A DNA stretch of 64,000 bases, from assembly GCA_903848275.1 (NCBI GenBank), contig CAINGB010000025.1, forward strand, positions 4,713-68,712. Reading direction: 5' to 3'. The first letter of the stretch is position 1. Every line of letters starts with the position of its first letter. The notes beneath the pieces were generated by a model. It did not search any database. It saw only the letters and a list, made by a program, of their open reading frames with translations, and was not told the origin of the DNA. This document shows, one piece after another, positions 120 through 60,800 of the stretch. The DNA is from Candidatus Uhrbacteria bacterium (GTDB taxonomy: Bacteria > Patescibacteriota > Patescibacteriia > UBA9934). The translations under genes were made by a program, and so were the position numbers.

Positions 120-3100
120 TTAAAGGGCGCAGTAGTTGAATTTGATGTTGCTGATGTTGACTTCGCCTACGCCAGTGTAGGTGACGCGAAGAGGTAGATC
201 CTGCTCAGCTGTTTGATCGCAGACAAAACCTTCCGGCCAAGGGAGAGCTACGCCAGTGCCTTCGGTCACGACACCTGTGGTCGAAGTTGTAGTTGCACCG
301 TTTGAAGTTAGGAGTTCAACCACGATACCGGTAAAGGACGAAACAATGGAGCTGAAAGCGTCGGCGATTTCGGTTGAAGCGGCGCCATTGTAAGCGTAGT
401 CAAGGTGATTAGTAGTGTTGGGAATAGTGCCATCTGACGTCAGTGCTGTGAAACGCGCGGCGGAATTACTCGACCAGCCAGCGATAGTACGAATGAGGGT
501 TGATGAACTGGAAGGTAGAGGAGCGATAGTGTAGAGCTCGTAGCCGGCAGCTTTGATTGAGTCGGCATTCGTTGAGGCACTTGAAGGCGAAGAGGCTCGG
601 CTGGCCTGAACTAGAACGATAGCCTTGCGGAAGTTACTCGTGACAGAGGATGTACCATCCAGAAGATGCTGAGCTAGGTTTAGACCGCTGGCAGTATCGG
701 GTTTACCGCTAGTTGTTGTATAGAGATCAATCAAGCCGGCGAGCGTACTTTCGTCAGCCGCGCTGTAGAAAGTACTGGTAGCGACTGGCCCGGAACGAGG
801 CATGTAAACTAGGCCGATGTGGACGTTGTCGTTCTGACGGAAGAGGTCGGAAATAGCTGTGCGCAGATCAGCCTTCACATCATCCAGACTGCTCGACATG
901 GCGGTCGTTAGATCCGTCACGAAGACCACGTAAATATCTGGTGAAGCGACATTATCGAGCGAGACGTCGGCGGTGAGGGTGGCGCCCAAGCGACAGGCTG
1001 GGAAGGTGATGGTAGCGGCGTTTGGGAGAATGGAAGTGGTAGTGGCGGAATAAGAGTAGAGGTCGACGCTAGAGGACGAGGCGGCGCCTGGTTGGTTGTC
1101 GGTCAAGAGCATGGCGTCGGAGAGGAAGGTGTCAGGACAAGTGGATCCACAATCATTGGCACAGACTGGGAACTGGCAGTCGTTGCTCGAGCAGTCGGCG
1201 TCAGAGAGACAAGTAGCACTGAGGCCGCGGATTGGATCCGAACTGTCACCGCCGTTGCACTGACCGACGGTTTGACAGACTTCGGTTTCATTAGCGGCAG
1301 CAATTCCATCGGAGTTAAGGTCGACAGAGATGCGCTGACCATTAGAAGTGCAGGTGCCAGTACCGACATAGGTATAACGGGTACTGGTCATGGTCGAGTC
1401 CCAAGCCGTAACCGGTGAAGAACCATAAATGGCTTCGACAGCGGGAACATAGGAGTTTGGTAAATCGTAAGCGTCGCAGTACTCGCTACCGTTGGCAACA
1501 CCGTCGCCGCAGAATTCGCCGGAGAGGCTGGTGTATTTGCAGCTGACGGAACAAGCCGTACAGGTGGATTCGTAAGCGCTGGTACAACCGGCACCGTTGT
1601 TTGCGCCTTCGTCACACTGCTCGGTGTCGAGTTCGAGGTAACCATCGCCGCAGACGTTAGTTTTACACTGATTGGTACAGGTGTCGCCGGAGTTGGTGTT
1701 GCCGTCGTCGCATTCTTCGCCAGTATCAACCACGCCGTCGCCACAATTATTGAGAGCTTTGCAAGTAATGCCTTCGTAACCTGTTGAGGCATCCGCCCAG
1801 TTGCAGGTTCCTCCATGCGCACCATCATCGTCACAAACACGGGTACGATAGGTTTGATAAGTGTTATTTGAGCAAGTGCCGCCAGCGCCACAGTCGTCAT
1901 CAGTAGTACAGGCCTGGCCGATGAGGGTGGCGTCGTCGCTAAGCTGACAAACGGTAGTTATCGGACAAGCGGTGAATGGTCCATGAAGCTGAACGGTTTC
2001 GTTACTAACGCCACATTTTGCTTGAGCTTTAGCACGAGCCGATCTGACACCAGCCTGACAATCGGCGTCCAATAAAGCTGGGTCACAAGACTGACCTTCC
2101 ATGGTACCGGAATTATTGTTACAGATAGTGCCGGCGTAGGAATCTGGTGCACCATCACAAACTTCCCCACTATCAATCACGCCGTCGCCGCAGTAGCTAG
2201 CTGGGCCTTGGCAGTCCCAAGCACAGGTGTTGTTTGGGTTGGAGTTGTAGTCACCGTTAAGGTAGCCAGATCCAGACGAGCCACCACAATAACGAGTTGA
2301 GCCATCGGTGGAATCAGTGCGGCCACCGTAAGGACGAGAGTCGGTGGAGGCAGAAGTTGAGGAACAGTCGCAGGCTTCGCTACCAGCTAAGCTGCCGTCA
2401 CCGCAGTAGAAGGCATCGACCGTGAGTTTACAAGTTGAGCCGCAGTAACCATAACGACCGTTCAGGGAGCCGTCATCACATTCTTCGCTGGCGGCATCGA
2501 TGAGACCGTTGCCACAAGTGGCGGCGACGCAGGTAGCGGAAGTGTCGGCGATGAAGGCTGAACAGGTGCTGTTGCAAACTTGAGAGATGGTACCGTCAAG
2601 AACAGTGGTGTCCGTGGTCGTGCTGCAAGAAGTGGTGGTGCCGCCGCGCTCGCCGATTTCGCAAACTTCGCTAGCGTTAACCACACCGTCACCGCAGTTA
2701 CCGGTGCTGCCGTAGATGGTAGTGCCGTCGCAGAAGACGGCGGTGGTGAAGCCAGCGGCCGTGCTGAGAGGACTCGAAACTTGGTAAGTGACGGCGTCGG
2801 TAGCACTGGTGTCATAGTCGTAGTACCAGGCACCGGTAGCATATTCGAGGTCAGCGTAGAGGGTGTAGCTTGCGCTGCCGGCTGCTTTGTAGTGGTAAAC
2901 GTGGCTACCAGCTGGACAGATGTACTGACCGTTGGCTTGGTTGACGCAAGTAGCGCTGTCGTAGCTAGCGAGAGGAGCCGTACCGCAACCGAGGAAGGCG
3001 TTAAGAGGATCGGCGACTAAACTGCTGTTGGCCAAAGCGCCACCCAGCAAGTCTGTCCAAGAACCCCAGACGCTAGCGCCGAGGCCACGAACGAAGGTGC

Positions 3101-6100
3101 CGGAACCGAGAGTTGGCACGTCGGAAGTAGCGTAGGTGGAGCTGTAAGTGCTGACTTCACTACTGATAGTGCGGAGGTCGGCCAAGCGTTTAACGTCGCG
3201 AGTTAATTTTATTTTGTTATTAGCACAAGTTTCGCCGGTAGCACAGTCGGCGTCGGCCGTACAAGTCTCAGTCGTGTAAGCTGAGCCGTCGGAACAGAGA
3301 GCGACGTCGCTGACGTTGGTGGCGAAAGAGAGGTTGGCGAGGAGCTGGTCGTAGATGGCGATGGTAGAGTCGCTGGCGCCTTCGTTGTAGGAAATGACGT
3401 AGATATTTGGGTAGAGAGTAGCGCCACTTTGGTTGACGGCGGCGATATAGGTGGTACGGCCGTCTTTAACAGCTTGGAAGCCGTCGGCGGTAGTGACAGA
3501 TGGACTGCCCGAGAAACCTTGAGCTGTGTACCAGGCCAGCGGGCTCAAGTAGTCGGAGTTGGTGACCACACGGTAACCAATAGCGTCGCCGCTGCCGTCA
3601 TTAACTTCGAAGAGATACTCCTTGAGGATATTGTCGGTCGTCGAGTAGTCGGCGGCGTTTTGGACGGTCAGAGCTGGATAGTCGTCCGTGGTGTCGGTGG
3701 TAGCTCCGGCGTCGCGGCAGTAGAAGTCCGAGAAGTTCATCCAACCAGAGCCAATGACAGCGCCGGTAGCCAAACTAGCGTCGTCGCTCCAAGGGAAGAC
3801 GGTGGTTTTGACGTCGGGCCAAGTATTTTCACAGAGGAAAGCGACAACTTTTTGCGTGCCAGCAATAGACGTACCTTCAGAAGTACCGAATTGATCGTAG
3901 TCGATGGTGGCGGTGGCCAATACATTAGCGTCGCCGTTCTTGCCGACAGCGGCGACCGCGGCAGTATCGGTAGCGCTAGGATCTGTGCTGCCGGTAGCAG
4001 TCACGATGGTAGCATTCATGTCGTCGGTCCAAGCCCAATTCCACGAGTAAACGCCGGACAAAGATTCGATTGGTTCGCTGGTCGTGCCGTTAAAAGTGTA
4101 AGCGGTGGCTGTAAAGTCGTGGCTTTCCGTAGCTTGTGAGAAGTAGTTTGGACTATCGGTATTGCCGTCTGTGACAGCTACACTGTCCAAAGTACAGATT
4201 TCTGAACCAGTTGAGAACTCTTGAGTGGCGGCGCCATGTACGTTATACATCGCTACCCCGTCAACAGAATGGACGCCTGGATGTGAAGCGTCAGTAACGT
4301 CGCTGTCAGTCATGACTTCTAGAGTGTAGTGAGCGTTGGCTAGCAAGGGGACGTCGTAGTGCATGGTGACTTTATAGCTAGTTACGTCAGGTGATGTTTC
4401 GATAGCGGTTTGTGAATAGGAAGCGACAGGCACAACACAATCGCCGGCAGCAGCCTCTGCTGAACGACCGGTGAAGAGCTGACGGACGTTAAGCCAGCTA
4501 CGAGAATACCAAGGAAGGTGCGAACTAACAGCCATGGCGAGCGAAGTGTGATCGCTAGGACAGAGGTGGCCAGGAACGGTAGTTAAGTCGAGCTTAGCAA
4601 ACATGAGCGGTTGTGCGGTAGCTGGCGCGGTGGGTGCAGTCAAGAACGTCGAGAGATCCATCTCGCTGCTAAAGAGACCGGATAGCTCGGCATTGCGGCA
4701 GACATTGCGTCCGGTTGGATGCAGGCTGACTGTTGGGCGAGCTAGGCAGCAGTTATTAACGCCGACACCAGTGGCTAATGGCAAATGACAGTCGAGATCG
4801 CTAACAGCTGAGCAGGAGAGAGAATAGGTGGTAGGTGTGGCTGAAGTAGTGATGCCAGAAACTGGTTCCGTGACGTACATGGAAGCAATGGCCAGCTTGG
4901 TAGCTGGGTCGACTTCCTGCGCGGCGTGGAGGTCAATGGCGGCCAATTGAGTGTCGTCAATACGGCTATCGCCACCAGAGGATTCACAAGTAGCGTATTC
5001 ACCAAGGCCGACCGTGCCATCACCGCAGAATGATGGAGTAGTGTAGGAAGTAGAGGAGCCAAGAAGGGTGCAAGATGATGAGCAATACTGTTGACCGTCG
5101 CAGTCTTCACCGGCACCAGTGGCAGCTTGAGTAGTGGCACCATCGCCGCACTTGCTGGCCCAGAAAGCACCACCAGCCGAACCTTCACGGAGACAGGAAG
5201 CGGAACAACCGTCACCACTGACACTATTGCCGTCGTCGCAAGTTTCGTAGTTTGGAGTAATGGTGCCGTCGCCGCAACGAGCGCCACCGATGTCAGCTGA
5301 ACTGACCGTGCCTTCGTTCAAGCAGAGTGAAGAACAACCGTCACCATTGGCCACGTTGCCGTCGTCGCAGTCTTCACCGCCCTGAGTAGGGTCATAAGCA
5401 ATGTCGTTGTTGCCGCAAGTGGTGTCGACAGAACGGGAACCTTCGTCAAGACAAGTGGCGGAACAACCGTCACCGTTCTTGGTGTTGCCGTCGTCGCAAT
5501 CTTCGCCGCTGCCGTCGCCAGCGCGATCGAGATGACCGTTGCCACAAACTGGCGCCCAGGTTGGACCACCGTTGCTACCTTCACGGAGACAGGATGATGA
5601 GCAGCCGTCGGCATTGGCAGTATTGCCGTCTTCACATTCTTCGCCGTGCAGAGTGTCGATGTGTCCGTCGCCACAAATTGCGGCGTAGGCCTGGCTGCCG
5701 CCTGGTGTACAAAGTGAGGTACAGCCGGCTGCAATGTCGTTCTTATTGGTGTCGATAGTAGCGCTTGGCAGCCAGTTGGCGACGTTAATGGTGCTGCTGT
5801 GGCCATTGTCGGTCCAGTTATGGAAGCTCCAGTTGTAACCGGTAGTGGCCAACAGCTGACCGGAGGTGGAACAGGCGTCAGGTACGCCGTAGGCAGAGAC
5901 TGCAAAGTTCTGACGCTCGCCAACCGTGGATGCCGTAGCGGCGTCCGGAGTAACGGCCAAACGGCTGACAGCACAAACGTCGGTGCCAGATTTCACGCCA
6001 AAGGTCCAGGAATAATCACCGGAGTAATTAGTGCGGGTTAAAGCAACACCACTTGGGGTAGCGACGTCACCCGAGATGACTACACGGTAGAAGGTACCAG

Positions 6101-9100
6101 GAGTGAGGTTGGTGCCAGAAGGTAAGGCAATGTCAGCTTGTTTGCAGTGAGTCGAGGCGTCGCTGGCGCAATTGGAGGCGCTCACTGAATAGGCGCGCAC
6201 TTCGTCGCCAACGCCGACGTTACAGAGTTCATTAGGACAAGCGTAGAGTTTAACGGCACCAGGAGCGACAAGCGTCGCGGCGTCCATGTCGGTATTGAAG
6301 GAGGCACCAATTAAACTGTTACGGCAAGCGCCGTCACAGCTTGGCCAGAAATCGGCGACGTAAGGATCCGTAAAGTTAATTGTGAGCACAGCGTTACCGT
6401 CGACATTGCTGGCTTGCTCTTGGGCGGTGACGTCCGTGGTGCCTTCGGCGTTGGCCTGAACGAGAGTGCAATATGAGTTACCGCTGGCACAGGCGTCACT
6501 CGAAGCAAGACCAGCGATACTTGGATCTACTGTCCAGTTGTAGGTGTACTTACTAGCATCGAGAACGACACAGCCGTCGCTTGGTAAGGCGTTGAAGGTG
6601 TCGGTGTTGCCTTGGGCGTCGATGGTGGCGGTAGCCGGCGAAACTGAGACATTATTAACAGCACAGGAAGCACCGGTACTGGAGACTAGGAAATGCCAAG
6701 AGTAATCGGCAGCCATAGCAATGCCGCCAGGGGAAGACTTGGCCGCGGTGCTGACCGTAACCTTGTAACTCGCAGCGTTAGCAAAAGGTGTATTTGGGAC
6801 CCAGGTGAAGGTGGTTGGCGAGGAGTCGGAAATAGTGAGAAGGCCGTCGGCCGTAATGTCCGTGCCGCCAGTGCAAGCGTCGCTGCTACACTTTTCGATT
6901 TTGACGGCGTCGTCGATAGTGCCGCGGTTCATGAGTTCCGTGAATTCAGCGTAAACTACAGCCTGAGGGCAGACGTCCGTAGTGAAAGTAGAGTTTGGTA
7001 CAGCGCTGATGCGACCACCAGGGGTGAGAGTACACTCAGTGACAATCTCTGGAGTTGTCGGAATTTTACCGGTTGAGAAATACCACTGATAGGCCGCTGG
7101 ACCTGGTGGGAGGGTGGTGGTAGTGGCGGCGCCGTAAGTGAAGTTGAGGGTGTTACTCGTGGCACCAGCCGCTGAGGTGATCTGCACTGGTCCGGAGGTA
7201 GCGCCTACTGGAGCCTTGACGGTGACAGCGGTGCTATTCCAGGCGCTGGTTAAAGTAGCTGGGATAGCGGAAAAGAAATCAACTGCGCCTGTACTTGAAC
7301 CGAGACTGCCGGTGATAGTAACCGTGTCACCGGCGGCGCCAGTGTTGGGCGAGATGGAACAGATGCCAGGGCTAGGCGCATTAGAAGTGATAGTGAAATC
7401 AGTAAGAGCCGAAGAGGCGCCGCTTTGGGCGACGAGATAAATGGCAAAATCAGTACCGGCGACAACCGGATTACCGTTTTGATAACTAGCCGGTACAATG
7501 ACAGTAACCTGAGTGTCAGACCAATAATCTGAGCAGGCGGCCGGGAAATCGACGCTAGCCAAGGCTTTGTAACCAGAAGTTTTGTTTTCGAAAAAGACTT
7601 GGCCGATATTGGCACCAAAGTTGCTGCCGGTTAAGGTAATGTAGTCGCCAATGGCAGCTGAGCTTGGGCTGATACTGGCGATGATTGGGACGGTTGTTGT
7701 AGCGGTCGCCAGGCTGTAGAGAATAGTATTGGAAGCCACGCCGCCCACAGTAACGCCGACTGGGTAGCTACCGTCACGAGCCGAAGGAGCCGTAACGTTA
7801 AGGGAACTATCGCTCCAGCCGCTGTAAGAACCGGCCGCGTTAGTACCGAAAGCAACAGTTGAGGTGCTTTGGGCGTCGCCGAAGTCTAAACCAGACAAAA
7901 CCACGGCGTCAGTTGGTGCGCCAGAGGCTGGCAACAGTGAACAAAGTTTAGGATGAACGACGTCGTTCACCACGAAGTCGTCGAAAATTTGACCGTAGTC
8001 GTCGTTACTCGAGTCACTGAGAGGCGTAGTAGCGCCAGTTGTGACCGTAATTGGGCCAGTCACAGCACCAACTGGAACCATCACAATCAAGCCGGTAGAA
8101 GACCAGGTGCTGCAAGATGGGCTGAGAGCGACGACTGTGCCGCCGTTAGCTGCGGTAAAGGTCACGGTTGGTTGTGTGTCGCCGAAGCCAACGCCGTCGA
8201 TAGTCACGAAGGTGCCAACAGCACCGGAGAGTGGCGAGATGCCAGTAATTTCTGGCAAGGCGGTACAAATGCCGTCCACACAGCTATCGCTTGGGCCGCA
8301 GTCGGCGTCAGAAGTACAGATGCTGCCAGAACAAGCGCCGCAGTAGTCGACGTTAGCGCTATCGCCACCACAGTTAAGGCCAGTTTCACCATGCGAGGTG
8401 TCGATAACGTCGTTAAAGCACCAAGGGCCACGGGCCGTAACATGAATGGTGTCGTCGCTCGTGTTGCCGGCGATGTCGGTGACGGTGGTGGCTAGCTTGT
8501 AGCTAGTGCTGTTGACGAGAGCTGTGGTATCCCAGTTAGTGGCGATGGTGGTGTCAGAAAGATCGGGGCCGGTGGCACCAACGGAGTCGAACTGCACGTC
8601 TTCTGCGCTAAAACTGGCGTCCGCCACTTGGCTGTCGTCTGTGGCATGGACTTGGACGAGGGCAGAAGAACCAGATTCCACGCTGCCGCTTGGGATAGTG
8701 ATGACGGCGGTTGGGTTAGCGACGTCGACGAGGTTGCCGGTGGTGAAGGAGGAAGTACAGCTGGTGGTGGTACAGACAAGCGTAGTACCGTTGGTGCTTT
8801 TTACGGCCGTGGAAACACTGACCGAGAAGGCAGTGTCTGCATCAAAACAGAAACGGGTGTCATTTGGTGATGGACAAGCGGCGTTAGGCCGGAAGCTGGC
8901 ACTATTACTGCTAACCGTGATGGTGCCGTCGATGACTGCGCCGCTAGCGGTGTTTTTGACGACTAGATTATTAGCAAGAGTAGCGGCGTCGAGAGTCTTG
9001 GAGAAAGTAACTTTAAGGAGGACGTTGCGGATGGCGACCGGGCCGTCTGGTGAATAGTCCGTCACCGAGAAGGCTGAGGTGCTGCTACTACCGCCGAATC

Positions 9101-9527
9101 CCCCGCCGCTGCCGTTACCACTGCTGGTGTTGCCGCCGCCAGCGCCAGTGGCGTTAAGCAACGCGGAAAGGATGAAGCTGGCAATCGCGAAGGAGAGCAG
9201 GATGATGGCCAGGCCAATGACGCCACGAATGAGGATTTTCTTGGCGCGTTCTAATTTTTCTTCGTTGCCGGCCGCGGTCATCCAAGTAAAGCCACCGTAG
9301 AGGACGATAAGTACTGAGAGAATACCGAGAACGCCAATGACCACGCGGATGATGCGAGCGATGATGATTTTAGGGTCTTCCGCCGTGAGGCCGGAGGCAG
9401 CGCCAACGTCGGCCAGGCTACTGGTGACTTGAGCTAGGAGGTGTGGAGCGTGCAAAAATACGCCAGCCGCAATGAGGCCAAGGACAGAAGGAAGAACGTA
9501 TTTAAGGCGGAACCAACGCATAGCCAA
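120..9527 (-). CDS. Giant (3135 aa) secreted or surface-anchored multidomain protein. N-terminal TM segment plus TrbC/VirB2-like pilin-type domain, then a Gly/Ser linker, Ig/IPT-like repeats, at least 12 Myxococcus-type Cys-rich repeats and a possible vWA-like C-terminus.
   Basis: One uninterrupted 9.4 kb ORF. N-terminus: hydrophobic segment, then ...LYGGFTWMTAAGNEEKLERAKKILIRGVIGLAIILLSFAIASFIL (pilin-like amphipathic/TM helix pair). Repeats CGDGHIDTLHGEECEDGNTANADGCSSSC, CGNGHLDRAG..EDCDDGNTKNGDGCSATC and others match the C-G-D-G-x-E-x-C-D-D-G-N-x-DGC-x-C pattern. IPT-like ITGISPLSGAVGTFVTIDGVGFG. C-terminal DIYVVFVTDLTTAMSS.. segment is vWA-like. Confidence 0.85.
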   Translation of the reverse strand: MAMRWFRLKYVLPSVLGLIAAGVFLHAPHLLAQVTSSLADVGAASGLTAEDPKIIIARIIRVVIGVLGILSVLIVLYGGFTWMTAAGNEEKLERAKKILIRGVIGLAIILLSFAIASFILSALLNATGAGGGNTSSGNGSGGGFGGSSSTSAFSVTDYSPDGPVAIRNVLLKVTFSKTLDAATLANNLVVKNTASGAVIDGTITVSSNSASFRPNAACPSPNDTRFCFDADTAFSVSVSTAVKSTNGTTLVCTTTSCTSSFTTGNLVDVANPTAVITIPSGSVESGSSALVQVHATDDSQVADASFSAEDVQFDSVGATGPDLSDTTIATNWDTTALVNSTSYKLATTVTDIAGNTSDDTIHVTARGPWCFNDVIDTSHGETGLNCGGDSANVDYCGACSGSICTSDADCGPSDSCVDGICTALPEITGISPLSGAVGTFVTIDGVGFGDTQPTVTFTAANGGTVVALSPSCSTWSSTGLIVMVPVGAVTGPITVTTGATTPLSDSSNDDYGQIFDDFVVNDVVHPKLCSLLPASGAPTDAVVLSGLDFGDAQSTSTVAFGTNAAGSYSGWSDSSLNVTAPSARDGSYPVGVTVGGVASNTILYSLATATTTVPIIASISPSSAAIGDYITLTGSNFGANIGQVFFENKTSGYKALASVDFPAACSDYWSDTQVTVIVPASYQNGNPVVAGTDFAIYLVAQSGASSALTDFTITSNAPSPGICSISPNTGAAGDTVTITGSLGSSTGAVDFFSAIPATLTSAWNSTAVTVKAPVGATSGPVQITSAAGATSNTLNFTYGAATTTTLPPGPAAYQWYFSTGKIPTTPEIVTECTLTPGGRISAVPNSTFTTDVCPQAVVYAEFTELMNRGTIDDAVKIEKCSSDACTGGTDITADGLLTISDSSPTTFTWVPNTPFANAASYKVTVSTAAKSSPGGIAMAADYSWHFLVSSTGASCAVNNVSVSPATATIDAQGNTDTFNALPSDGCVVLDASKYTYNWTVDPSIAGLASSDACASGNSYCTLVQANAEGTTDVTAQEQASNVDGNAVLTINFTDPYVADFWPSCDGACRNSLIGASFNTDMDAATLVAPGAVKLYACPNELCNVGVGDEVRAYSVSASNCASDASTHCKQADIALPSGTNLTPGTFYRVVISGDVATPSGVALTRTNYSGDYSWTFGVKSGTDVCAVSRLAVTPDAATASTVGERQNFAVSAYGVPDACSTSGQLLATTGYNWSFHNWTDNGHSSTINVANWLPSATIDTNKNDIAAGCTSLCTPGGSQAYAAICGDGHIDTLHGEECEDGNTANADGCSSSCLREGSNGGPTWAPVCGNGHLDRAGDGSGEDCDDGNTKNGDGCSATCLDEGSRSVDTTCGNNDIAYDPTQGGEDCDDGNVANGDGCSSLCLNEGTVSSADIGGARCGDGTITPNYETCDDGNSVSGDGCSASCLREGSAGGAFWASKCGDGATTQAATGAGEDCDGQQYCSSSCTLLGSSTSYTTPSFCGDGTVGLGEYATCESSGGDSRIDDTQLAAIDLHAAQEVDPATKLAIASMYVTEPVSGITTSATPTTYSLSCSAVSDLDCHLPLATGVGVNNCCLARPTVSLHPTGRNVCRNAELSGLFSSEMDLSTFLTAPTAPATAQPLMFAKLDLTTVPGHLCPSDHTSLAMAVSSHLPWYSRSWLNVRQLFTGRSAEAAAGDCVVPVASYSQTAIETSPDVTSYKVTMHYDVPLLANAHYTLEVMTDSDVTDASHPGVHSVDGVAMYNVHGAATQEFSTGSEICTLDSVAVTDGNTDSPNYFSQATESHDFTATAYTFNGTTSEPIESLSGVYSWNWAWTDDMNATIVTATGSTDPSATDTAAVAAVGKNGDANVLATATIDYDQFGTSEGTSIAGTQKVVAFLCENTWPDVKTTVFPWSDDASLATGAVIGSGWMNFSDFYCRDAGATTDTTDDYPALTVQNAADYSTTDNILKEYLFEVNDGSGDAIGYRVVTNSDYLSPLAWYTAQGFSGSPSVTTADGFQAVKDGRTTYIAAVNQSGATLYPNIYVISYNEGASDSTIAIYDQLLANLSFATNVSDVALCSDGSAYTTETCTADADCATGETCANNKIKLTRDVKRLADLRTISSEVSTYSSTYATSDVPTLGSGTFVRGLGASVWGSWTDLLGGALANSSLVADPLNAFLGCGTAPLASYDSATCVNQANGQYICPAGSHVYHYKAAGSASYTLYADLEYATGAWYYDYDTSATDAVTYQVSSPLSTAAGFTTAVFCDGTTIYGSTGNCGDGVVNASEVCEIGERGGTTTSCSTTTDTTVLDGTISQVCNSTCSAFIADTSATCVAATCGNGLIDAASEECDDGSLNGRYGYCGSTCKLTVDAFYCGDGSLAGSEACDCSSTSASTDSRPYGGRTDSTDGSTRYCGGSSGSGYLNGDYNSNPNNTCAWDCQGPASYCGDGVIDSGEVCDGAPDSYAGTICNNNSGTMEGQSCDPALLDADCQAGVRSARAKAQAKCGVSNETVQLHGPFTACPITTVCQLSDDATLIGQACTTDDDCGAGGTCSNNTYQTYRTRVCDDDGAHGGTCNWADASTGYEGITCKALNNCGDGVVDTGEECDDGNTNSGDTCTNQCKTNVCGDGYLELDTEQCDEGANNGAGCTSAYESTCTACSVSCKYTSLSGEFCGDGVANGSEYCDAYDLPNSYVPAVEAIYGSSPVTAWDSTMTSTRYTYVGTGTCTSNGQRISVDLNSDGIAAANETEVCQTVGQCNGGDSSDPIRGLSATCLSDADCSSNDCQFPVCANDCGSTCPDTFLSDAMLLTDNQPGAASSSSVDLYSYSATTTSILPNAATITFPACRLGATLTADVSLDNVASPDIYVVFVTDLTTAMSSSLDDVKADLRTAISDLFRQNDNVHIGLVYMPRSGPVATSTFYSAADESTLAGLIDLYTTTSGKPDTASGLNLAQHLLDGTSSVTSNFRKAIVLVQASRASSPSSASTNADSIKAAGYELYTIAPLPSSSSTLIRTIAGWSSNSAARFTALTSDGTIPNTTNHLDYAYNGAASTEIADAFSSIVSSFTGIVVELLTSNGATTTSTTGVVTEGTGVALPWPEGFVCDQTAEQDLPLRVTYTGVGEVNISNIKFNYCAL

Positions 9528-34995: not shown

Positions 34996-35042
34996 CTGTG
35001 GATAAGTGCTGTATACGTTGAGCGTATACGCTCAACGTATAC
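34996..35042. repeat. Perfect DnaA box (TTATCCACA, minus orientation) followed by a 32-nt perfect palindrome (gtatacgttgagcgtatacgctcaacgtatac) in the scpA promoter region
   Basis: + strand tctgtggataagtgct | gtatacgttgagcgtatacgctcaacgtatac. The palindrome is self-complementary over all 32 nt and contains 3 GTATAC. Confidence 0.7.
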
Positions 35043-35043
35043 A

Positions 35044-36357
35044 CTACGGTCTTAAGCGTTGAACATCCCGAGGGAAAATCGTCGCCTCCTTAACGTTCGC
35101 GAGGCCCAAGATGTTTTGGGTGAGGCGTTGCAGGCCAATAGCGAAGCCGCCTTCGGGGGGAATACCGAATTTGTGCATGGTCAAGTAGTCCTCAAAATCG
35201 GCCGGGTTCAAGCCTTTCTCCACGATGCGGGCGAGCTGTTCGTCGTAGCGGTTAATGCGCATACCGCCGGAAGTGATTTCACTCCCCCAGCCGATGACGT
35301 CGAAAGTGAGGGTGTTGTTCGGGTCGGTTGGATCCACCTTGGCATAGAACGGGCGTTTGGCTGGCGTCCAGTCAGTGACGAAGACAAAGCCGCAGTTGTG
35401 GTGCTTGGGGGCCCATTCTTTGGAGAGCCACTTTTCGGCCGCTGGTGAGAGGTCTGGCTCCCCTGTTTCGTCGACACCGGCTTCGTCGCGGTAAGCGGCC
35501 AGGGCGTCGGCCAGCTTGATACGAGGGAAACGCTCGCCGAGTGGTGGGAGAACGGTTTCGAGAAGTTTTAATTCGACGGTGCAATCACGCTCGACAGAGG
35601 CAACCATCTGGCGAATGGCGGCTTCTTCGATGTCCATGAGCTCGTCGATGCTATCGATGAAACCAGCTTCAAACTCGAGTTGGTTGAACTCGGTCAAGTG
35701 ACGTGAGGTAGCGAATTTTTCGGCGCGGAAGGAGTAGCTCAAACCGTAAACGCCTTCGTAGACGCCCATGGTGATTTGCTTGTAGAGCTGGGCGGACTGG
35801 GTGAGCGTGGCTTCGCGGCCGTAATAGTCGACCTTGAAGAATTCGGCGCCACCTTCACTAGCGGCACCAGCCAGCACGGGGAAGAAAATTTCGGTGTAGC
35901 CCTGAGCTTCCATGAAAGCGCGGTAACCGTGAACCAAAGCGGCCTGCACACGGAAGATGGCGCGCTGCTTAGGGTGACGGAGAGTGACCACGCGGTTGTC
36001 GAGGAGGGTGTCCAAGTTGACGTCGAGCACAGGCTTGCCGATTTCGACTGGCACGACGTCGACAACTGGTGAGAGAATTTCCAAAGTCTCAACTTGCATT
36101 TCGACTTCTTTAATCAACGGATCCTTCGACTTCTTTTCCACGATGAGGCCGGTGACGGCTACGACGGTTTCCACCTGGAGGCCGTGGAGTTGGGTAAGTT
36201 GCTCGGCGTTAAGGACGGTTTGCGCGAGGCCGGAACGGTCGCGGATGATGGCGAAGCCGAACTTGCTCATGTCGCGGAGGGTGTTGAGCCAGCCTTTGAT
36301 GGTGACGACTTCACCTAGATGGCTTGGGAGATCCTTTACTAGAGTTCTGGTATTCAT
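35044..36357 (-). CDS. aspS: Aspartate--tRNA ligase, archaeal/eukaryal type (possibly non-discriminating)
   Basis: Motif 2 FRAEKFATSRHLTEF. Motif 3 GGFAIGLQRL. SGGMRINRYD is AspRS-like. Start taken at MNTRTLVKDL. Confidence 0.75.
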   Translation of the reverse strand: MNTRTLVKDLPSHLGEVVTIKGWLNTLRDMSKFGFAIIRDRSGLAQTVLNAEQLTQLHGLQVETVVAVTGLIVEKKSKDPLIKEVEMQVETLEILSPVVDVVPVEIGKPVLDVNLDTLLDNRVVTLRHPKQRAIFRVQAALVHGYRAFMEAQGYTEIFFPVLAGAASEGGAEFFKVDYYGREATLTQSAQLYKQITMGVYEGVYGLSYSFRAEKFATSRHLTEFNQLEFEAGFIDSIDELMDIEEAAIRQMVASVERDCTVELKLLETVLPPLGERFPRIKLADALAAYRDEAGVDETGEPDLSPAAEKWLSKEWAPKHHNCGFVFVTDWTPAKRPFYAKVDPTDPNNTLTFDVIGWGSEITSGGMRINRYDEQLARIVEKGLNPADFEDYLTMHKFGIPPEGGFAIGLQRLTQNILGLANVKEATIFPRDVQRLRP

Positions 36358-36383
36358 AGGTCGTATTGGTCCAATAGGACCTA

Positions 36384-37688
36384 TTAAGGAGTTGAGCGAT
36401 TTAGCATGCGGGGGAAGGCGATGGTTTCGCGGATGTGGTGGTTGCCGGTGATCCAACGGACGGTGCGCTCGAGACCGATGCCGAAGCCGCTGTGCTGTAC
36501 GGCGCCGTACTTGCGGGTGTTCAAGTACCAGTCATATTCGGCCAAGGGGTAGCCACGATCCACAATTTCCTTTTTGAGCGCGTCGTAGCTTTCTTCACGC
36601 TGACTACCGCCGATAATTTCGCGGCCTTCTTCTGGCGCGATGAGGTCCGCATTCCTGGCGCGGAGGACGCCAGCTTCATCGACGTAACGCTTCATGTAGA
36701 AGGCTTTGACAGCGGCTGGATAATCCTCGATGAAAATTGGCAGTTGATATTTGTTACCGAGGTAGATTTCTTCCTCCGTGCCCATGTCGTCCAAGGGATC
36801 CACGTCGGCGATGCCGTCGGCGATCAAGATGGCTTTGGCTTCCGCGTGCTTGAGGTGGACGAATGGTTCGTCGACTAGTTTTTGTAAGAGCGTGGTGTCG
36901 CGCTCGAGGATTTTGAGCTCGGGGGCGCAGAATTTGAGGACGTCGCCGACGATGCGCTTGACCATCCGTTCCTGCACAGCCATGTTGTCCACTTGGTCGT
37001 GGAAGGCCATTTCCGCGTCCATCATCCAGAGTTCCGAGAGGTGGTGGCGCGTCTTGCTCTTTTCCGCGCGGAAGACGGGGCCGAAGTCGTAAACTTTGCC
37101 GAAGCTCATGATGCCCGCTTCGCTGTAAAGCTGGCCCGATTGCGAGAGATACATGGGATTGCCGTAGTAGTCGACGCTGAAGAGCTGGGTGGTGTCTTCG
37201 CAGCTAGTTGGCTGCAAGATTGGGGTGTCAAAGCGGATGAAACCGGCTTCGTGGAAGAATTGCTCGATGCTGAAGAAGACTTGGTCGCGAATGCGGAGTG
37301 TGGCCCAGGGCGTGGCGCTGCGGAGGTACAAGTCGCGGTTGTCGAAGAGGAAGTCCGGGCCGTGTTCTTTGTTGGCGATTGGGTAATCTTCTGGAGCGAG
37401 CGCGATGATGGCGAAGGCGGTGCCTTGGATTTCGAAGCCGCTTGGCGCACGAGGCTCAGCTTTAACAAGACCGGTGACGGTGACGGAAGACTCGAGGGTC
37501 AGCGACTTGAGGGCGTCCCATTGCTCGGCTGGCAAATCCCCCGCCGAGTAGACGACTTGGACACGGCCGCTGCCGTCGCGGAATTGGAGGAAGAAGATTT
37601 TGCCGCTGCTCCTGAAGTTGTAGGCCCAGCCTTGAAGAGTAATGGTTTCACCGACGAGGGTTGAGAGTTGGGAGATTGAGGGAGTCAT
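36384..37688 (-). CDS. asnS: Asparagine--tRNA ligase
   Basis: FRAEKSKTRHHLSEL, GGSQREE, DWYLNTRKYGAVQHSGFGIGLER (AsnRS-type motif 3). Start taken at MTPSISQLS. Confidence 0.75.
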   Translation of the reverse strand: MTPSISQLSTLVGETITLQGWAYNFRSSGKIFFLQFRDGSGRVQVVYSAGDLPAEQWDALKSLTLESSVTVTGLVKAEPRAPSGFEIQGTAFAIIALAPEDYPIANKEHGPDFLFDNRDLYLRSATPWATLRIRDQVFFSIEQFFHEAGFIRFDTPILQPTSCEDTTQLFSVDYYGNPMYLSQSGQLYSEAGIMSFGKVYDFGPVFRAEKSKTRHHLSELWMMDAEMAFHDQVDNMAVQERMVKRIVGDVLKFCAPELKILERDTTLLQKLVDEPFVHLKHAEAKAILIADGIADVDPLDDMGTEEEIYLGNKYQLPIFIEDYPAAVKAFYMKRYVDEAGVLRARNADLIAPEEGREIIGGSQREESYDALKKEIVDRGYPLAEYDWYLNTRKYGAVQHSGFGIGLERTVRWITGNHHIRETIAFPRMLNRSTP

Positions 37689-37706
37689 ATAGAGATATTG
37701 TTTTGA

Positions 37707-37847
37707 GTTGGTCACGTTTTGTGACCAACTGGCTACCTGGGGACAATCTGTCCCCAGGTAGCCATCGTAAGAATAGTTTTTTTCGTTCTCAAGTGGTGAC
37801 AACCTGTCACCACTTGACCTCAGTCTGTCACAGTTTGTGACAGACTG
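37707..37847. repeat. Four tandem perfect hairpins between the T-box terminator and the asnS start codon. Stems are 9-13 bp, all built around GTCAC/GTGAC or TGTCCCC cores.
   Basis: + strand: gttggtcac gtttt gtgaccaac. ggctacctggggaca atc tgtccccaggtagcc. caagtggtgaca acc tgtcaccacttg. cagtctgtcaca gtt tgtgacagactg. Confidence 0.7.
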
Positions 37848-37995
37848 AAAAATAAAATTCACCCGTACAGAACGACGAGTTAGGCTCATCATTTTGTAAG
37901 GGCGAATCTTCATTAGATCGCGGTGCCACCTCACTTTAGGCTTTTAAGCAATTGTGCGCGCTGGTCGTTAAGCAGCGGGAGGATTGTCAGGCCTG
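37847..37995 (-). promoter_or_regulatory. Candidate T-box riboswitch leader of asnS. It has a promoter (TTGCCA-17-TATAGT), a short specifier hairpin with AAC (Asn) in its loop, a T-box sequence GGUGGCACCGCG that forms a canonical antiterminator (A1 6 bp, 7-nt bulge UGGCACC, A2 6 bp), and an overlapping 13-bp terminator plus U-tract.
   Basis: Minus strand reads cgcug CUUAACGAC cagcg ... aaGUGAGG UGGCACC GCGAUC uaaugaa GAUUCGC CCUUAC a ... terminator attcgcccttaca...tgtacgggtgaat tttattttt. UGGC is complementary to GCCA (G73 discriminator of tRNA-Asn). Confidence 0.55.
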
Positions 37996-38115
37996 GTAAG
38001 ACTATAGCTGAACGGGGATTTGGTGGCAAGCCTCTAGAATAGAAGAACGACACCGGGGGCATGCCGTTCCCCTGGGGGTCGGGCACCTCACGGTGTCGTT
38101 AAAGTAGAGTTGCAA

Positions 38116-38403
38116 TTAGGCGGGCCTGGTACGCCACTCTCCATCGAGGAAAAAGACGGCACGATGCACGAGCCAACCATCCGAGCGACGGAACACCGAG
38201 CCGAAGATGTGCTCATCAATCTTCCATTCCTCGGGGAAATCCTGAGTCGCCAGACGGTGATCCAAGACGTGTGAGGGACAGAGCCAACTGGGGGTTTGGA
38301 TATCAACCAGGCCGCGGGGGAGGTGTTTGGGCTGGTCGGCCTCGTTGTAGGTGCAACCAGCGGGGATGATGGGGATGCCGGAACAATCGACCATTTGAGG
38401 CAT
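38116..38403 (-). CDS. Hypothetical 95-aa Cys-containing protein with its own consensus promoter and SD
   Basis: Promoter TTGACA-17-TATACT at 38441-38469 (minus). GGAG 7 nt upstream of the ATG. No recognisable family. Confidence 0.5.
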   Translation of the reverse strand: MPQMVDCSGIPIIPAGCTYNEADQPKHLPRGLVDIQTPSWLCPSHVLDHRLATQDFPEEWKIDEHIFGSVFRRSDGWLVHRAVFFLDGEWRTRPA

Positions 38404-40391: not shown

Positions 40392-40445
40392 GTGGGGATA
40401 AGTGGTCTACATTCAATGTATACATTGAATGTAGACCACTTATCC
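40392..40445. repeat. 50-nt perfect palindrome (25-bp arms, centre GTATAC) flanked by TTATCC(CC)AC DnaA-box-like motifs. Its right arm overlaps the stop codon of the ABC permease gene.
   Basis: ggataagtggtctacattcaatgta|tacattgaatgtagaccacttatcc. The left end reads gtggggataag (reverse complement cTTATCCCCAC). The right end reads cTTATCCACgg. Confidence 0.8.
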
Positions 40446-60715: not shown

Positions 60716-60800
60716 AAAAATAACTCCCGGAGGGCTTGCCACGTCAGTCGCGACTGACGTGGCTTGCACGCCTCCGGGAGATGTTTTTTTATTTAAGCGG
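60716..60800. terminator. Bidirectional intrinsic terminator: nested perfect palindrome (gccacgtcagtcg|cgactgacgtggc inside ctcccggagg/cctccgggag), flanked by A6 and T7
   Basis: aaaaaataactcccggagggcttgccacgtcagtcgcgactgacgtggcttgcacgcctccgggagatgtttttttattt, between convergent genes. Confidence 0.7.

What the first reader, a model, noticed from the sequence alone, without database searches (positions are those of the whole stretch)
37847..37995. Candidate reduced T-box riboswitch controlling asnS: ultrashort specifier hairpin with AAC codon, canonical antiterminator and terminator
On the minus strand, the asnS leader starts at a TTGCCA-17-TATAGT promoter and contains:

- A short hairpin cgcug-CUUAACGAC-cagcg with the Asn codon AAC in the terminal loop.
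- The T-box sequence GGUGGCACCGCG. It folds into a textbook antiterminator: helix A1 gugagg/ccuuac, a 7-nt bulge UGGCACC, and helix A2 gcgauc/gauucgc with a 7-nt loop.
- A mutually exclusive 13-bp terminator plus U-tract that reuses the A1/A2 3' strand.

The UGGC bulge would pair with the GCCA end of tRNA-Asn (G73). An ultrashort Stem I with the specifier in a terminal loop is known only for actinobacterial ileS T-boxes.
Basis: partly seen in the sequence, partly recalled or inferred. Interest (0 to 1): 0.65.

Follow-up and report, generated by a model that had tools for sequence, protein, structure and literature searches.

The report
Stripped-down tRNA-Asn T-box riboswitch
The leader of the asparaginyl-tRNA synthetase operon of this candidate-phyla-radiation bacterium looks like a real tRNA-sensing T-box riboswitch, but it lacks nearly all the accessory RNA domains that textbook T-boxes use to hold the tRNA, making it one of the smallest natural designs I know of.

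Summary
On the minus strand, 38029-37848 holds a conserved promoter, a 5-bp hairpin with AAC in its 9-nt loop, the T-box sequence GGUGGCACCGCG inside an A1/7-nt-bulge/A2 antiterminator, and a competing long terminator with a U-tract. These lie upstream of an asnS-aspS operon.

The organism is a Patescibacteria (Uhrbacteria-like) bacterium. Thirty-six distinct orthologous leaders carry the same discriminator. Antiterminator, terminator and the relatives' Stem I all show compensatory changes. One column covaries with both of its alternative partners.

Rfam's T-box model misses the whole clade. Relatives score 30-47 bits against a gathering score of 93; the window gives only a 15.5-bit local hit.

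The clade holds at least four decoding architectures. The window type (5 leaders) is the most reduced:
- no K-turn
- no distal tRNA-elbow platform
- no Stem II or IIA/B pseudoknot
- no Stem III

It is still 86-91% conserved where synonymous sites are 58-67% identical.

Best reading: a functional, transcription-attenuating tRNA-Asn T-box of an architecture outside the four described classes, a new variant of a known kind. tRNA binding and switching are inferred, not shown.

An unproven lead: conserved GAC (Asp) motifs beside AAC suggest possible dual tRNA-Asn/tRNA-Asp sensing.

The parts
38001..38029 (-). Sigma-70-type promoter: TTGCCA, 17 nt, TATAGT. The predicted transcription start is about 37994.
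   Evidence: The scan scores it 10/12. Both hexamers are kept in L161, L002, L003, L004 and in type C relatives while the spacer sequence varies. The start site is inferred, not measured.
37978..37994 (-). 5' segment AGGCCUGACAAUCCUCC. AGGC (37994-37991) can pair with GCCU (37941-37938), a helix I call P0. CUGACA (37990-37985) is invariant in the five type D leaders.
   Evidence: RNAalifold on the 5 type D leaders predicts P0. There is no compensatory change, so P0 is unproven. L168 has the same helix, UAGGC/GCCUA, as a local hairpin.
37959..37977 (-). Ultrashort Stem I: a 5-bp hairpin CGCUG/CAGCG with the 9-nt terminal loop CUUAACGAC. The specifier AAC is at 37969-37967 and is followed by the purine G. 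GAC is at 37966-37964.
   Evidence: The hairpin is identical in all 5 type D leaders while its neighbours vary. The homologous hairpins of relatives covary. Compared with type C GCGG/CCGC, the stem shows a G-C to U-A double change.
37935..37958 (-). Single-stranded linker CGCACAAUUGCUUAAAAGCCUAAA. It takes the place of Stem II, the IIA/B pseudoknot and Stem III. It contains the purine string AAAAG (37945-37941), which fits the RRRxG motif, and the AA(A) that precedes A1.
   Evidence: It aligns to the linker of type C leaders in the R1 alignment. No stable helix is predicted next to A1. The RRRxG-Stem III-AA motif is described in PMC7583486.
37896..37934 (-). Antiterminator (discriminator): A1 GUGAGG/CCUUAC, 7-nt T-box bulge UGGCACC (UGGC at 37928-37925), A2 GCGAUC/GAUUCGC, and loop UAAUGAA. 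The conserved 12-mer GGUGGCACCGCG is at 37930-37919.
   Evidence: Local Rfam T-box hit to model positions 183-216. In 26 leaders 100% of cells are paired and 3 pairs show double changes. In L168-L170 the A2 pair G-C becomes A-U.
37848..37908 (-). Intrinsic terminator: a hairpin of about 22 pairs (5' strand 37908-37885, loop 37884-37880, 3' strand 37879-37856) plus the U-tract 37857-37848. It shares 37908-37896 with the antiterminator.
   Evidence: Calculated at -27.1 kcal/mol. 12 of 22 pairs show double changes across 26 leaders. Alignment column 48 (window position 37899) covaries with both its antiterminator partner and its terminator partner.
37706..37848 (-). Four perfect hairpins of 10-16 bp with GTSAC-type apices (37848-37820, 37817-37789, 37764-37730, 37730-37706). 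They lie in the 5' UTR between the terminator and the asnS start codon.
   Evidence: They are absent from L004 and from nearly all other leaders, where the ATG follows the U-tract directly. Different but similar hairpins are present in L161, L002 and L003. Their function is unknown.
36384..37688 (-). asnS, asparagine--tRNA ligase, 434 aa.
   Evidence: NCBIfam NF003037, 469 bits against a cut-off of 414. The start codon was placed from the translation.
35044..36357 (-). aspS, an archaeal/non-discriminating-type aspartate--tRNA ligase. It starts 26 nt after asnS and is probably co-transcribed.
   Evidence: NCBIfam NF003483, 429 bits against a cut-off of 353. The junction was read. The paralog follows asnS in every architecture type wherever the locus reaches far enough.

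Best explanation
This is a functional T-box riboswitch specific for tRNA-Asn. It controls transcription of the asnS-aspS operon by attenuation.

**Proposed mechanism**
1. Transcription starts near 37994.
2. The nascent RNA forms a 5-bp hairpin that displays the Asn codon AAC, followed by a purine, in its terminal loop. This pairs with the GUU anticodon.
3. If the bound tRNA is uncharged, its 3' end G73-C-C-A pairs with UGGC in the 7-nt T-box bulge. This stabilises the weak A1/A2 antiterminator, and RNA polymerase reads through.
4. If the tRNA is charged or absent, the much more stable terminator forms with the shared strand 37908-37896, and transcription stops in the U-tract.

**What is unusual**
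The decoding part is reduced to the hairpin and single-stranded flanks. It has no K-turn, no distal elbow-binding platform, no Stem II S-turn, no IIA/B pseudoknot and no Stem III. The whole sensor is about 99 nt.

**Shown:** the sequence elements, their conservation, the covariation of both alternative folds, and purifying selection.

**Inferred:** tRNA binding, charge sensing, the start site, and termination in vivo.
For: - **Elements present.** All T-box core elements are at the stated coordinates.
- **Independent model.** A family-specific covariance model built without any window-type sequence finds the leader as the only hit in 64 kb. The hit is global, 38.3 bits, E = 2.3e-7.
- **Conservation.** 36 distinct orthologous leaders share the discriminator.
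- **Antiterminator covariation.** 100% of cells are paired. Pair 12/48 is A-U in 14 leaders and C-G in 12.
- **Terminator covariation.** 12 of 22 pairs have double changes. No shuffle and no slid register reaches the observed values.
- **Switch signature.** Column 48 changes together with both alternative partners, which is the signature of a two-state switch.
- **Relatives are T-boxes.** Eight relatives align globally to RF00230, showing a K-turn, a deletion of the distal Stem I, a Stem II with AGUAGAA, the CCGUUA F-box, in several a Stem III, and the antiterminator.
- **Relatives' Stem I.** It covaries in both helices.
- **Purifying selection.** The five window-type leaders are 86-91% identical. 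Four-fold degenerate sites of the adjacent asnS are only 58-67% identical.
- **tRNA match.** Nine tRNA-Asn genes from other Patescibacteria have anticodon GUU and discriminator G73, matching the C of UGGC.
- **Energetics.** They favour termination by default, -27.1 against -9.7 kcal/mol.
- **Regulated gene.** The downstream gene is asnS.
Against: - **Missing modules.** Published work says transcriptional T-boxes generally need the long Stem I with its elbow-binding motif. [quoted passage not shown] A leader lacking all three might bind tRNA too weakly or too slowly for a kinetic switch.
- **Rfam.** The T-box model gives only a 15.5-bit local hit.
- **No internal covariation.** Within the five window-type leaders the specifier hairpin never varies, so it has no covariation of its own.
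- **tRNA source.** tRNA-Asn of this genome was not available. The G73 evidence comes from other Patescibacteria lineages.
- **No experimental data.** There is no expression or termination data.
- **Unexplained hairpins.** Four extra hairpins of unknown role lie between the terminator and the start codon.
Confidence: 0.8

Rival explanations
1. Dual-tRNA T-box: the leader senses both tRNA-Asn and tRNA-Asp, matching the two synthetases of the operon. The Asp codon GAC would be presented in addition to AAC. Both tRNAs would be read by the same UGGC bulge, because both have G73.
For: - **Window loop.** It reads CUU-AAC-GAC, and CUGACA at 37990-37985 is invariant in all five window-type leaders while the next bases vary.
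- **Type B leaders.** All 11 have a three-way junction with two covarying hairpins. One has the invariant loop core GUGACA and the other has the loop CAAACAA.
- **L171.** It has the normal K-turn Stem I, but its terminal loop is CGUGACA and there is no AAC hairpin.
- **L168.** It has a hairpin with loop AGUGACGC before the AUUAACGAC hairpin.
- **Complementarity.** GUGACAG is the exact reverse complement of the anticodon loop CUGUCAC of E. coli tRNA-Asp. This is from my own knowledge and was not checked for this clade.
- **Operon.** aspS follows asnS in every type.
- **Precedent.** A two-tRNA T-box exists in Clostridium acetobutylicum (Saad et al. 2013, as described in PMC4052509).
Against: - 18 of 36 leaders (types A and C) control the same operon with no conserved GAC motif.
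- In the K-turn types, UGAC arises simply from the K-turn GA plus a variable base.
- The GAC in the window loop abuts the stem and is not followed by a purine.
- In the 7-nt loops of type B, GAC and AAC sit in different registers.
- No tRNA-Asp sequence from this clade was available.
- The conserved GUGACA loop could instead make a tertiary contact.
Confidence: 0.18
2. Relic T-box: the decoding half has decayed. The element now works only as a constitutive, leaky terminator, or as a terminator controlled by something other than tRNA.
For: - The element has lost the K-turn, Stem II, IIA/B and Stem III.
- The literature says these modules are needed.
- Foreign genes and hairpins have been inserted just downstream in close relatives, which suggests a region in flux.
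Against: - The 70 nt upstream of the T-box are as conserved as the discriminator, and far more conserved than synonymous sites.
- The specifier hairpin, the UGGC bulge and the purine string are invariant across relatives with 85-97% AsnRS identity.
- The antiterminator is kept by a compensatory change even where the terminator was left with a mismatch. A plain terminator would not need an antiterminator.
Confidence: 0.07
3. T-box that depends on a helper: the minimal RNA binds tRNA-Asn only together with a trans-acting factor that replaces the missing RNA domains. The factor could be an RNA-binding protein or the paused transcription complex.
For: - The same argument from missing modules applies.
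- The single-stranded flanks CUGACAAYCCUC and CGCACAAYYGC are conserved without any evident pairing.
- L7Ae-type proteins are already proposed to assist T-box K-turns (PMC7583486).
Against: - No candidate protein is encoded next to the leader. The neighbours are ruvX, recO, asnS, aspS, scpA and scpB.
- No known T-box requires a protein.
- This reading is not exclusive of the best explanation.
Confidence: 0.12
4. Translational T-box: the hairpin at 37908-37856 acts as a sequestrator of the ribosome-binding region, as in actinobacterial ileS leaders, rather than as a terminator.
For: - In most relatives the ATG follows the U-tract directly, for example GGCGAAUUUUUCUUUUUAUG.
- In those relatives the 3' strand of the hairpin carries UAAGGG or ACAGGCG 10-20 nt upstream of the ATG. 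The hairpin could therefore also hide the ribosome landing site.
Against: - In the window the start codon is 160 nt downstream of the hairpin, behind four other hairpins.
- A U-tract of 6 or more U directly after the stem is conserved in all leaders. This is the mark of an intrinsic terminator.
Confidence: 0.05

Closest known systems
Class III T-boxes (short Stem I): ileS leaders of Actinobacteria such as Mycobacterium tuberculosis and Nocardia farcinica (Sherwood et al. 2015; classification in PMC10482949)
   Same: - Short Stem I without the distal elbow-binding motif.
- Specifier codon in an apical loop, followed by a purine.
- Same T-box bulge chemistry.
- The type A relatives of the window also have the K-turn, the Stem II with S-turn and the IIA/B pseudoknot.
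   Different: - The window has no K-turn and no Stem II domain, which is described as required in this class.
- The window has no Stem III.
- The loop is 9 nt rather than 5-6.
- The amino acid is Asn and the gene is asnS-aspS.
- The phylum is Patescibacteria.
- The expression platform is an intrinsic terminator with a U-tract, not a Shine-Dalgarno sequestrator.
Class II T-boxes: glycine-specific glyQS/glyQ leaders of Bacillus and Oceanobacillus
   Same: - A flexible single-stranded linker replaces the Stem II domain.
- Control is by transcription termination.
   Different: - glyQS has a long Stem I with a K-turn, an internal specifier loop and the distal tRNA-elbow platform.
- glyQS has a Stem III that is reported as indispensable.
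- The window has none of these.
Two-codon NT-box of Clostridium acetobutylicum (Saad et al. 2013, as described in PMC4052509)
   Same: - An Asn-responsive T-box tied to the tRNA-Asn/Asp charging system.
- A precedent for one T-box reading two tRNAs.
- The GAACA loops of the window's relatives contain the same overlapping GAA/AAC.
   Different: - The NT-box is a full-size Firmicute T-box with a large specifier loop in a long Stem I.
- It senses Asn and Glu.
- The window loop reads UUAACGAC, with no GAA.
- Two-tRNA sensing here is only a hypothesis.
asnS T-boxes of a few Firmicutes (Wels et al. 2008, PMC2494555)
   Same: Same regulated gene and same specifier logic.
   Different: - Those are canonical class I leaders recognised by standard models.
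- This clade falls below the Rfam gathering score.

Membership tests
T-box leader (Rfam RF00230) | The conserved T-box sequence AGGGUGGNACCGCG | tested here: met
   The window has GAGGUGGCACCGCG at 37932-37919. The core 12-mer is identical in 33 of the 36 leaders. The other three have GGUGGCACCACG with a compensating change.
T-box leader (Rfam RF00230) | An antiterminator made of helix A1, a 7-nt bulge and helix A2 | tested here: met
   100% of cells are paired in 26 leaders, and 3 pairs show double changes. The local Rfam alignment covers model positions 183-216.
T-box leader (Rfam RF00230) | A mutually exclusive terminator that shares the 3' strand of the antiterminator and is followed by a U-tract | tested here: met
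   Of 22 pairs, 12 show double changes. The calculated energies are -27.1 against -9.7 kcal/mol. The U-tract is conserved.
T-box leader (Rfam RF00230) | A specifier codon that matches the amino acid of the regulated gene and is followed by a purine | tested here: met
   AAC followed by G lies in the terminal loop, and the regulated gene is asnS. AAC followed by a purine is in a hairpin loop in 35 of 36 leaders.
T-box leader (Rfam RF00230) | The variable base of UGGN is complementary to the tRNA discriminator base | tested here: met
   N is C. Nine Patescibacteria tRNA-Asn genes have G73. The tRNA of this genome itself was not available.
T-box leader (Rfam RF00230) | A covariance-model score at or above the gathering score (93 bits) | tested here: not met
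   No hit at the gathering score. The local hit is 15.5 bits. Eight relatives that keep Stem II and the IIA/B pseudoknot also stay at 30-47 bits.
T-box leader (Rfam RF00230) | A long Stem I with a K-turn, an internal specifier loop and a distal tRNA-elbow platform | tested here: not met
   Stem I is a 5-bp hairpin. The K-turn is present in types A and C but not in the window.
T-box leader (Rfam RF00230) | A Stem III flanked by RRRxG and AA | tested here: not met
   AAAAG and AAAG are present, but only 3 nt lie between them. No helix sits next to A1 in 14 of 36 leaders. A long-range AGGC/GCCU helix might substitute for Stem III, but this is unproven.
T-box leader (Rfam RF00230) | Binding of uncharged cognate tRNA causes readthrough | not testable with these tools
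   This needs in vitro transcription or binding assays.
Class III (short Stem I) T-box | A short Stem I with the specifier in the apical loop | tested here: met
   The class definition is in PMC10482949.
Class III (short Stem I) T-box | A Stem II with S-turn plus the IIA/B pseudoknot, required for tRNA binding | tested here: not met
   The 24-nt linker has no helix and no AGUA/GAA motif. Both elements are present in type A relatives.
Class III (short Stem I) T-box | Translational control by sequestering the Shine-Dalgarno sequence | tested here: not met
   The element has a terminator with a U-tract, and the start codon is 160 nt downstream.
Class II (glyQS-type) T-box | A single-stranded linker in place of Stem II, combined with a long Stem I platform; glycine-specific | tested here: not met
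   The linker feature is met. The long Stem I and the Gly specifier are not.

The most novel reading that the evidence does not exclude
One minimal T-box reads two tRNAs. AAC binds tRNA-Asn. A second conserved motif containing GAC binds tRNA-Asp. That motif is CUGACA at 37990-37985 and/or the GAC in the loop of the window, and the GUGACA hairpin in type B relatives. Both tRNAs report their charge to the same UGGC bulge, because both carry G73. The asnS-aspS operon would then be switched on when either tRNA is uncharged. In addition, the clade would be a natural deletion series showing that a T-box can work with only a codon loop and a discriminator.
Probability: 0.18. Interest if true: 0.85.

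Novelty: new variant of a known kind. Interest (0 to 1): 0.68.

Why it matters
Current structural and kinetic work holds three things about T-boxes:
- A transcriptional T-box needs the long Stem I platform to catch tRNA fast enough.
- Short-Stem-I T-boxes need Stem II.
- The discriminator needs Stem III.

Here one narrow clade of Patescibacteria carries orthologous asnS leaders covering a series of designs:
- the full short-Stem-I set (K-turn, Stem II, pseudoknot, Stem III);
- a form with a K-turn hairpin plus linker;
- the window's form, a bare hairpin plus linker, which keeps a terminator and is under clear purifying selection.

If these minimal leaders work, three consequences follow:
- They define the smallest natural tRNA-sensing riboswitch, about 99 nt.
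- They give a ready-made natural deletion series for testing which contacts are really required.
- They extend T-boxes to a phylum for which I found no published report.

The clade also shows that model-based annotation misses it entirely. T-box counts in uncultivated phyla are therefore probably underestimates.

Tried and rejected
1. **A K-turn in the window.** The 5' half, AGGC-CU-GA-C, resembles the K-turn of type C leaders. No GA-plus-helix partner follows the hairpin, so I do not claim a K-turn.

2. **A CAAU/AUUG helix in the window.** RNAfold predicts it. It is not kept in L003 or L004, so I rejected it.

3. **The recurrent ACAAY in the linker as the true specifier** (AAU and AAC are both Asn codons). 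I rejected this. The motif is absent from several type A leaders and looks like part of the purine-rich linker. The loop AAC is invariant.

4. **A local mini Stem III, GCU-NAAA-AGC.** It has only 2-3 bp and is not kept in L003 or L004.

5. **Other T-boxes in the window.** Three further GGTGGNACC matches lie inside coding regions and have no T-box context.

6. **GTSAC hairpins as a general element upstream of asnS.** The one extra match, in L030, has no similar context. T-box-free relatives show nothing comparable.

7. **The metagenome scan** added no further window-type leaders.

8. **Literature searches** for T-boxes in Patescibacteria or the candidate phyla radiation returned nothing. Sherwood 2015 and Battaglia 2019 are not in the held library, so their content is cited only through reviews.

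9. **A correlation between architecture type and presence of aspS downstream.** There is none. aspS follows asnS in all types.
Full report
**Observation.**
- Promoter: TTGCCA-17-TATAGT at 38029-38001. The scan scores it 10/12.
- Hairpin: CGCUG-CUUAACGAC-CAGCG at 37977-37959, with AAC at 37969-37967.
- T-box sequence: GGUGGCACCGCG at 37930-37919.
- Antiterminator: A1 GUGAGG/CCUUAC, bulge UGGCACC, A2 GCGAUC/GAUUCGC.
- Terminator: it re-uses 37908-37896 and ends in UUUUAUUUUU at 37857-37848.

It has about 22 pairs and is calculated at -27.1 kcal/mol, against -9.7 for the antiterminator. The 12-mer occurs once in the window on either strand. The leader folds better than shuffled sequence, z = -3.5.

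**Context.** The downstream ORF starts at the ATG at 37688 and is asparagine--tRNA ligase (NF003037, 469 bits). Twenty-six nt further on comes a non-discriminating-type aspartate--tRNA ligase (NF003483, 429 bits; 35044-36357). The neighbourhood reads ruvX, recO, leader, asnS, aspS, scpA, scpB. The closest AsnRS relatives are all metagenome-assembled Patescibacteria, mostly labelled Candidatus Uhrbacteria.

**Rfam.** At gathering thresholds the window shows only four tRNAs. At a permissive threshold the T-box model gives a 15.5-bit local hit to the antiterminator. Twenty orthologous loci also give no gathering-level hit. However, eight of them align globally to RF00230 at 30-47 bits, E from 4e-7 to 5e-3. 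Those alignments show a K-turn, a deletion of the distal Stem I, a Stem II with AGUAGAA, the CCGUUA F-box hairpin, in several a Stem III, and the antiterminator. So the clade is a real T-box clade that falls below the curated cut-off of 93 bits.

**Conservation.** The 12-mer lies upstream of asnS in 22 of 80 species-level genome loci. It also appears in metagenome contigs and in every contig fetched through close AsnRS homologues. Together these give 36 distinct leaders. More distant Patescibacteria lack it. Several of them have a tRNA-Asn gene upstream of asnS instead.

**Covariation.** I counted pairs on a 26-sequence alignment of the 3' domain.
- The antiterminator is paired in 100% of cells. 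Three of its pairs carry double changes, and pair 12/48 is A-U in 14 leaders and C-G in 12.
- The terminator has 12 of 22 pairs with double changes.
- No shuffle and no slid register reaches these values.
- Column 48 changes together with its antiterminator partner (column 12) and its terminator partner (column 88). This is what a two-state switch predicts.
- In L168-L170 the otherwise invariant A2 pair G-C is replaced by A-U.
- The Stem I of 14 relatives covaries in both its lower and its upper helix. It has the K-turn pattern: helix, NNU(U)GA, upper helix, loop, upper helix, GA or AA, helix.

**Architectures.** The 36 leaders fall into at least four designs.
- **Type A (8 leaders).** K-turn short Stem I with loop AYUUGAACAC, Stem II, and the IIA/B pseudoknot, whose loop-to-linker pairing covaries. 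Stem III is present in some and absent in others.
- **Type B (11 leaders).** A three-way junction with two covarying hairpins. One has the loop core GUGACA and the other has the loop CAAACAA. A Stem III follows.
- **Type C (10 leaders).** K-turn short Stem I with loop CYGAACAM, followed directly by a linker of about 28 nt. Stem III is present in some and absent in others.
- **Type D (5 leaders: the window, L161, L002, L003, L004).** A 17-nt 5' segment, a bare 5-bp hairpin with loop CUUAACGAC, a 24-nt linker, and then A1.
- **L168 and L171** are singular forms.

A covariance model built from six type C leaders finds the window leader as its only hit in 64 kb (38.3 bits, E = 2.3e-7). It aligns the linker ACAAUUG...AAAAG...AAAGU base for base. 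So type D is homologous to type C over its whole length.

**What the window lacks.** It has no K-turn partner strand, no distal platform, no Stem II, no pseudoknot and no Stem III. The purine string AAAAG and the AAAG before A1 fit the RRRxG...AA motif that normally flanks Stem III (PMC7583486). Only three bases lie between them, as in 14 of the 36 leaders. RNAalifold suggests a long-range helix, AGGC (37994-37991) with GCCU (37941-37938), which would end where Stem III normally ends. L168 has the same helix as a local hairpin. No compensatory change supports it, so I leave it open.

**Selection.** Between the window and the other four type D genomes, four-fold degenerate sites of asnS are 58-67% identical. 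The leader from +1 to the U-tract is 86-91% identical, including the single-stranded flanks. The element is therefore maintained, not decaying.

**tRNA match.** Nine tRNA-Asn genes found by chance in other Patescibacteria loci have anticodon GUU, anticodon loop CUGUUAA and discriminator G73. G73 matches the C of UGGC. The tRNA of this genome itself was not available.

**Mechanism.** The best-supported reading is the standard T-box mechanism acting on transcription, carried out by a stripped-down sensor.
- *Shown:* all core elements, two covarying alternative folds, default-off energetics, and purifying selection.
- *Inferred:* the start site, tRNA binding, charge discrimination, and termination in vivo.

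Because the start codon lies 160 nt beyond the terminator, translational control by this hairpin is unlikely in the window. In most relatives the ATG abuts the U-tract, so the hairpin there could also hide the ribosome landing site.

**Comparison with what is known.**
- PMC10482949 defines four classes:
  - Class I: long Stem I plus Stem II.
  - Class II: glycine-specific, long Stem I plus a single-stranded linker.
  - Class III: short Stem I with an apical-loop specifier, requiring Stem II.
  - Class IV: Stem I of intermediate length.
- The review PMC7583486 states that transcriptional T-boxes generally require the long Stem I platform. [quoted passage not shown]
- Type A relatives are class III in their decoding half but carry a terminator.
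- Types C and D combine the short Stem I of class III with the linker of class II, and often have no Stem III. They fit none of the four classes.
- TBDB searched its short-Stem-I model only in Actinobacteria and in sequences already detected by the Rfam model, so this clade is unlikely to be in it.
- I found no paper linking T-boxes with Patescibacteria or the candidate phyla radiation. The held library is incomplete.

I therefore rate this a new variant of a known kind.

**A lead that goes further.** GAC, the Asp codon, keeps appearing next to AAC.
- The window loop reads UU-AAC-GAC.
- CUGACA at 37990-37985 is invariant in type D, while the following bases vary.
- All type B leaders carry a separate hairpin with the invariant loop core GUGACA.
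- L171 has the usual K-turn Stem I, but its terminal loop is CGUGACA and it has no AAC hairpin.
- L168 has a hairpin with loop AGUGACGC.
- GUGACAG is the reverse complement of the anticodon loop of E. coli tRNA-Asp. This is from my own knowledge and was not checked in this clade.
- tRNA-Asp also has G73.
- The operon encodes both synthetases in all types.
- A two-tRNA T-box has a precedent (Saad et al. 2013, via PMC4052509).

Against this reading: half of the leaders (types A and C) have no conserved GAC, and the motif could serve a tertiary contact. I give it about 0.18.

**Caveats.**
- The five type D leaders are too similar to test their own hairpin or the P0 helix by covariation.
- The start site is predicted, not measured.
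- No tRNA from this genome was seen.
- Nothing here measures binding or termination.

Noticed in passing
window 37706-37848 (minus strand): Four perfect hairpins (10-16 bp, no mismatch and no G.U pair, apices of the type GTSAC-N5-GTSAC) fill the 160 nt between the T-box terminator and the asnS start codon. Three of the four GTSAC-N5-GTSAC matches in the whole window are here, where 0.22 are expected. They are absent from L004 and from nearly all other leaders. Close relatives carry different hairpins of the same style. They may be REP-like or a scar of gene insertion. Their function is unknown.
   Followed up: partly
L161 672-1499; L002 2387-2920; L003 about 2388-2900: In the closest relatives (95-97% AsnRS identity) a foreign gene sits between the T-box terminator and asnS. 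In L161 it is a protein with a weak Bro-N domain hit. In L002 and L003 it is a 177-aa protein that looks NYN/LabA-like to me; I did not test that with a domain search. These inserted genes would come under tRNA-Asn control.
   Followed up: partly
L075 6799-6881; L061 3655-3732; L057 6146-6211: The clade model also finds T-box-like leaders in Saccharibacteria and Dojkabacteria loci (25-35 bits). They have the bulge UGGUA, which implies an A73 tRNA. They have a short K-turn Stem I with terminal loop CCUCCUA or CUUCCUA (possibly CCU, Pro), Stem II-like elements and a terminator. In L061 the next ORF looks like an IS200/RAYT-type transposase; I did not test that with a domain search. So short-Stem-I T-boxes occur in several Patescibacteria lineages.
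   Followed up: partly
L005, L006, L007, L010, L014, L015, L017, L018, L053, L081, L090 (leaders upstream of asnS); L171 about 480-560: Type B leaders fold into a three-way junction with two covarying hairpins, one with loop core GUGACA and one with loop CAAACAA. L171 has a K-turn Stem I whose terminal loop is CGUGACA instead of an AAC loop. It may be an Asp-specific version of the same leader.
   Followed up: partly
L044, L048, L050, L051, L052, L057, L058, L059, L060 (0.1-1.6 kb upstream of asnS): In Patescibacteria lineages without the T-box, a tRNA-Asn (GUU) gene lies upstream of asnS on the same strand.
   Followed up: no
window 35044-36383: asnS is followed after 26 nt by a non-discriminating-type AspRS gene. 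The spacer contains the small hairpin GGUCCUAUUGGACC. This pairing of the two class IIb synthetases is conserved across the whole T-box clade. Whether the organism also has GatCAB was not checked.
   Followed up: partly
window 38046-38100 and 38116-38403 (minus strand): Between recO and the promoter the window has about 480 extra nt that most relatives lack. They contain a long GC-rich hairpin followed by CUUCU (38100-38046), which is also present in L161. They also contain a 95-aa ORF with no family match, whose only relative is an ORF upstream of the leader in L002.
   Followed up: partly
window 40396-40445; 35010-35043; 60729-60772: Other long palindromes: a perfect 50-nt palindrome (25-nt arms, no spacer), a perfect overlapping 18-nt-arm palindrome just downstream of aspS, and a 22-nt-arm palindrome that is 82% complementary.
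   Followed up: no
window 120-9527 (minus strand): A single ORF of 3135 codons, unusually large for a genome of this kind. It was not examined.
   Followed up: no
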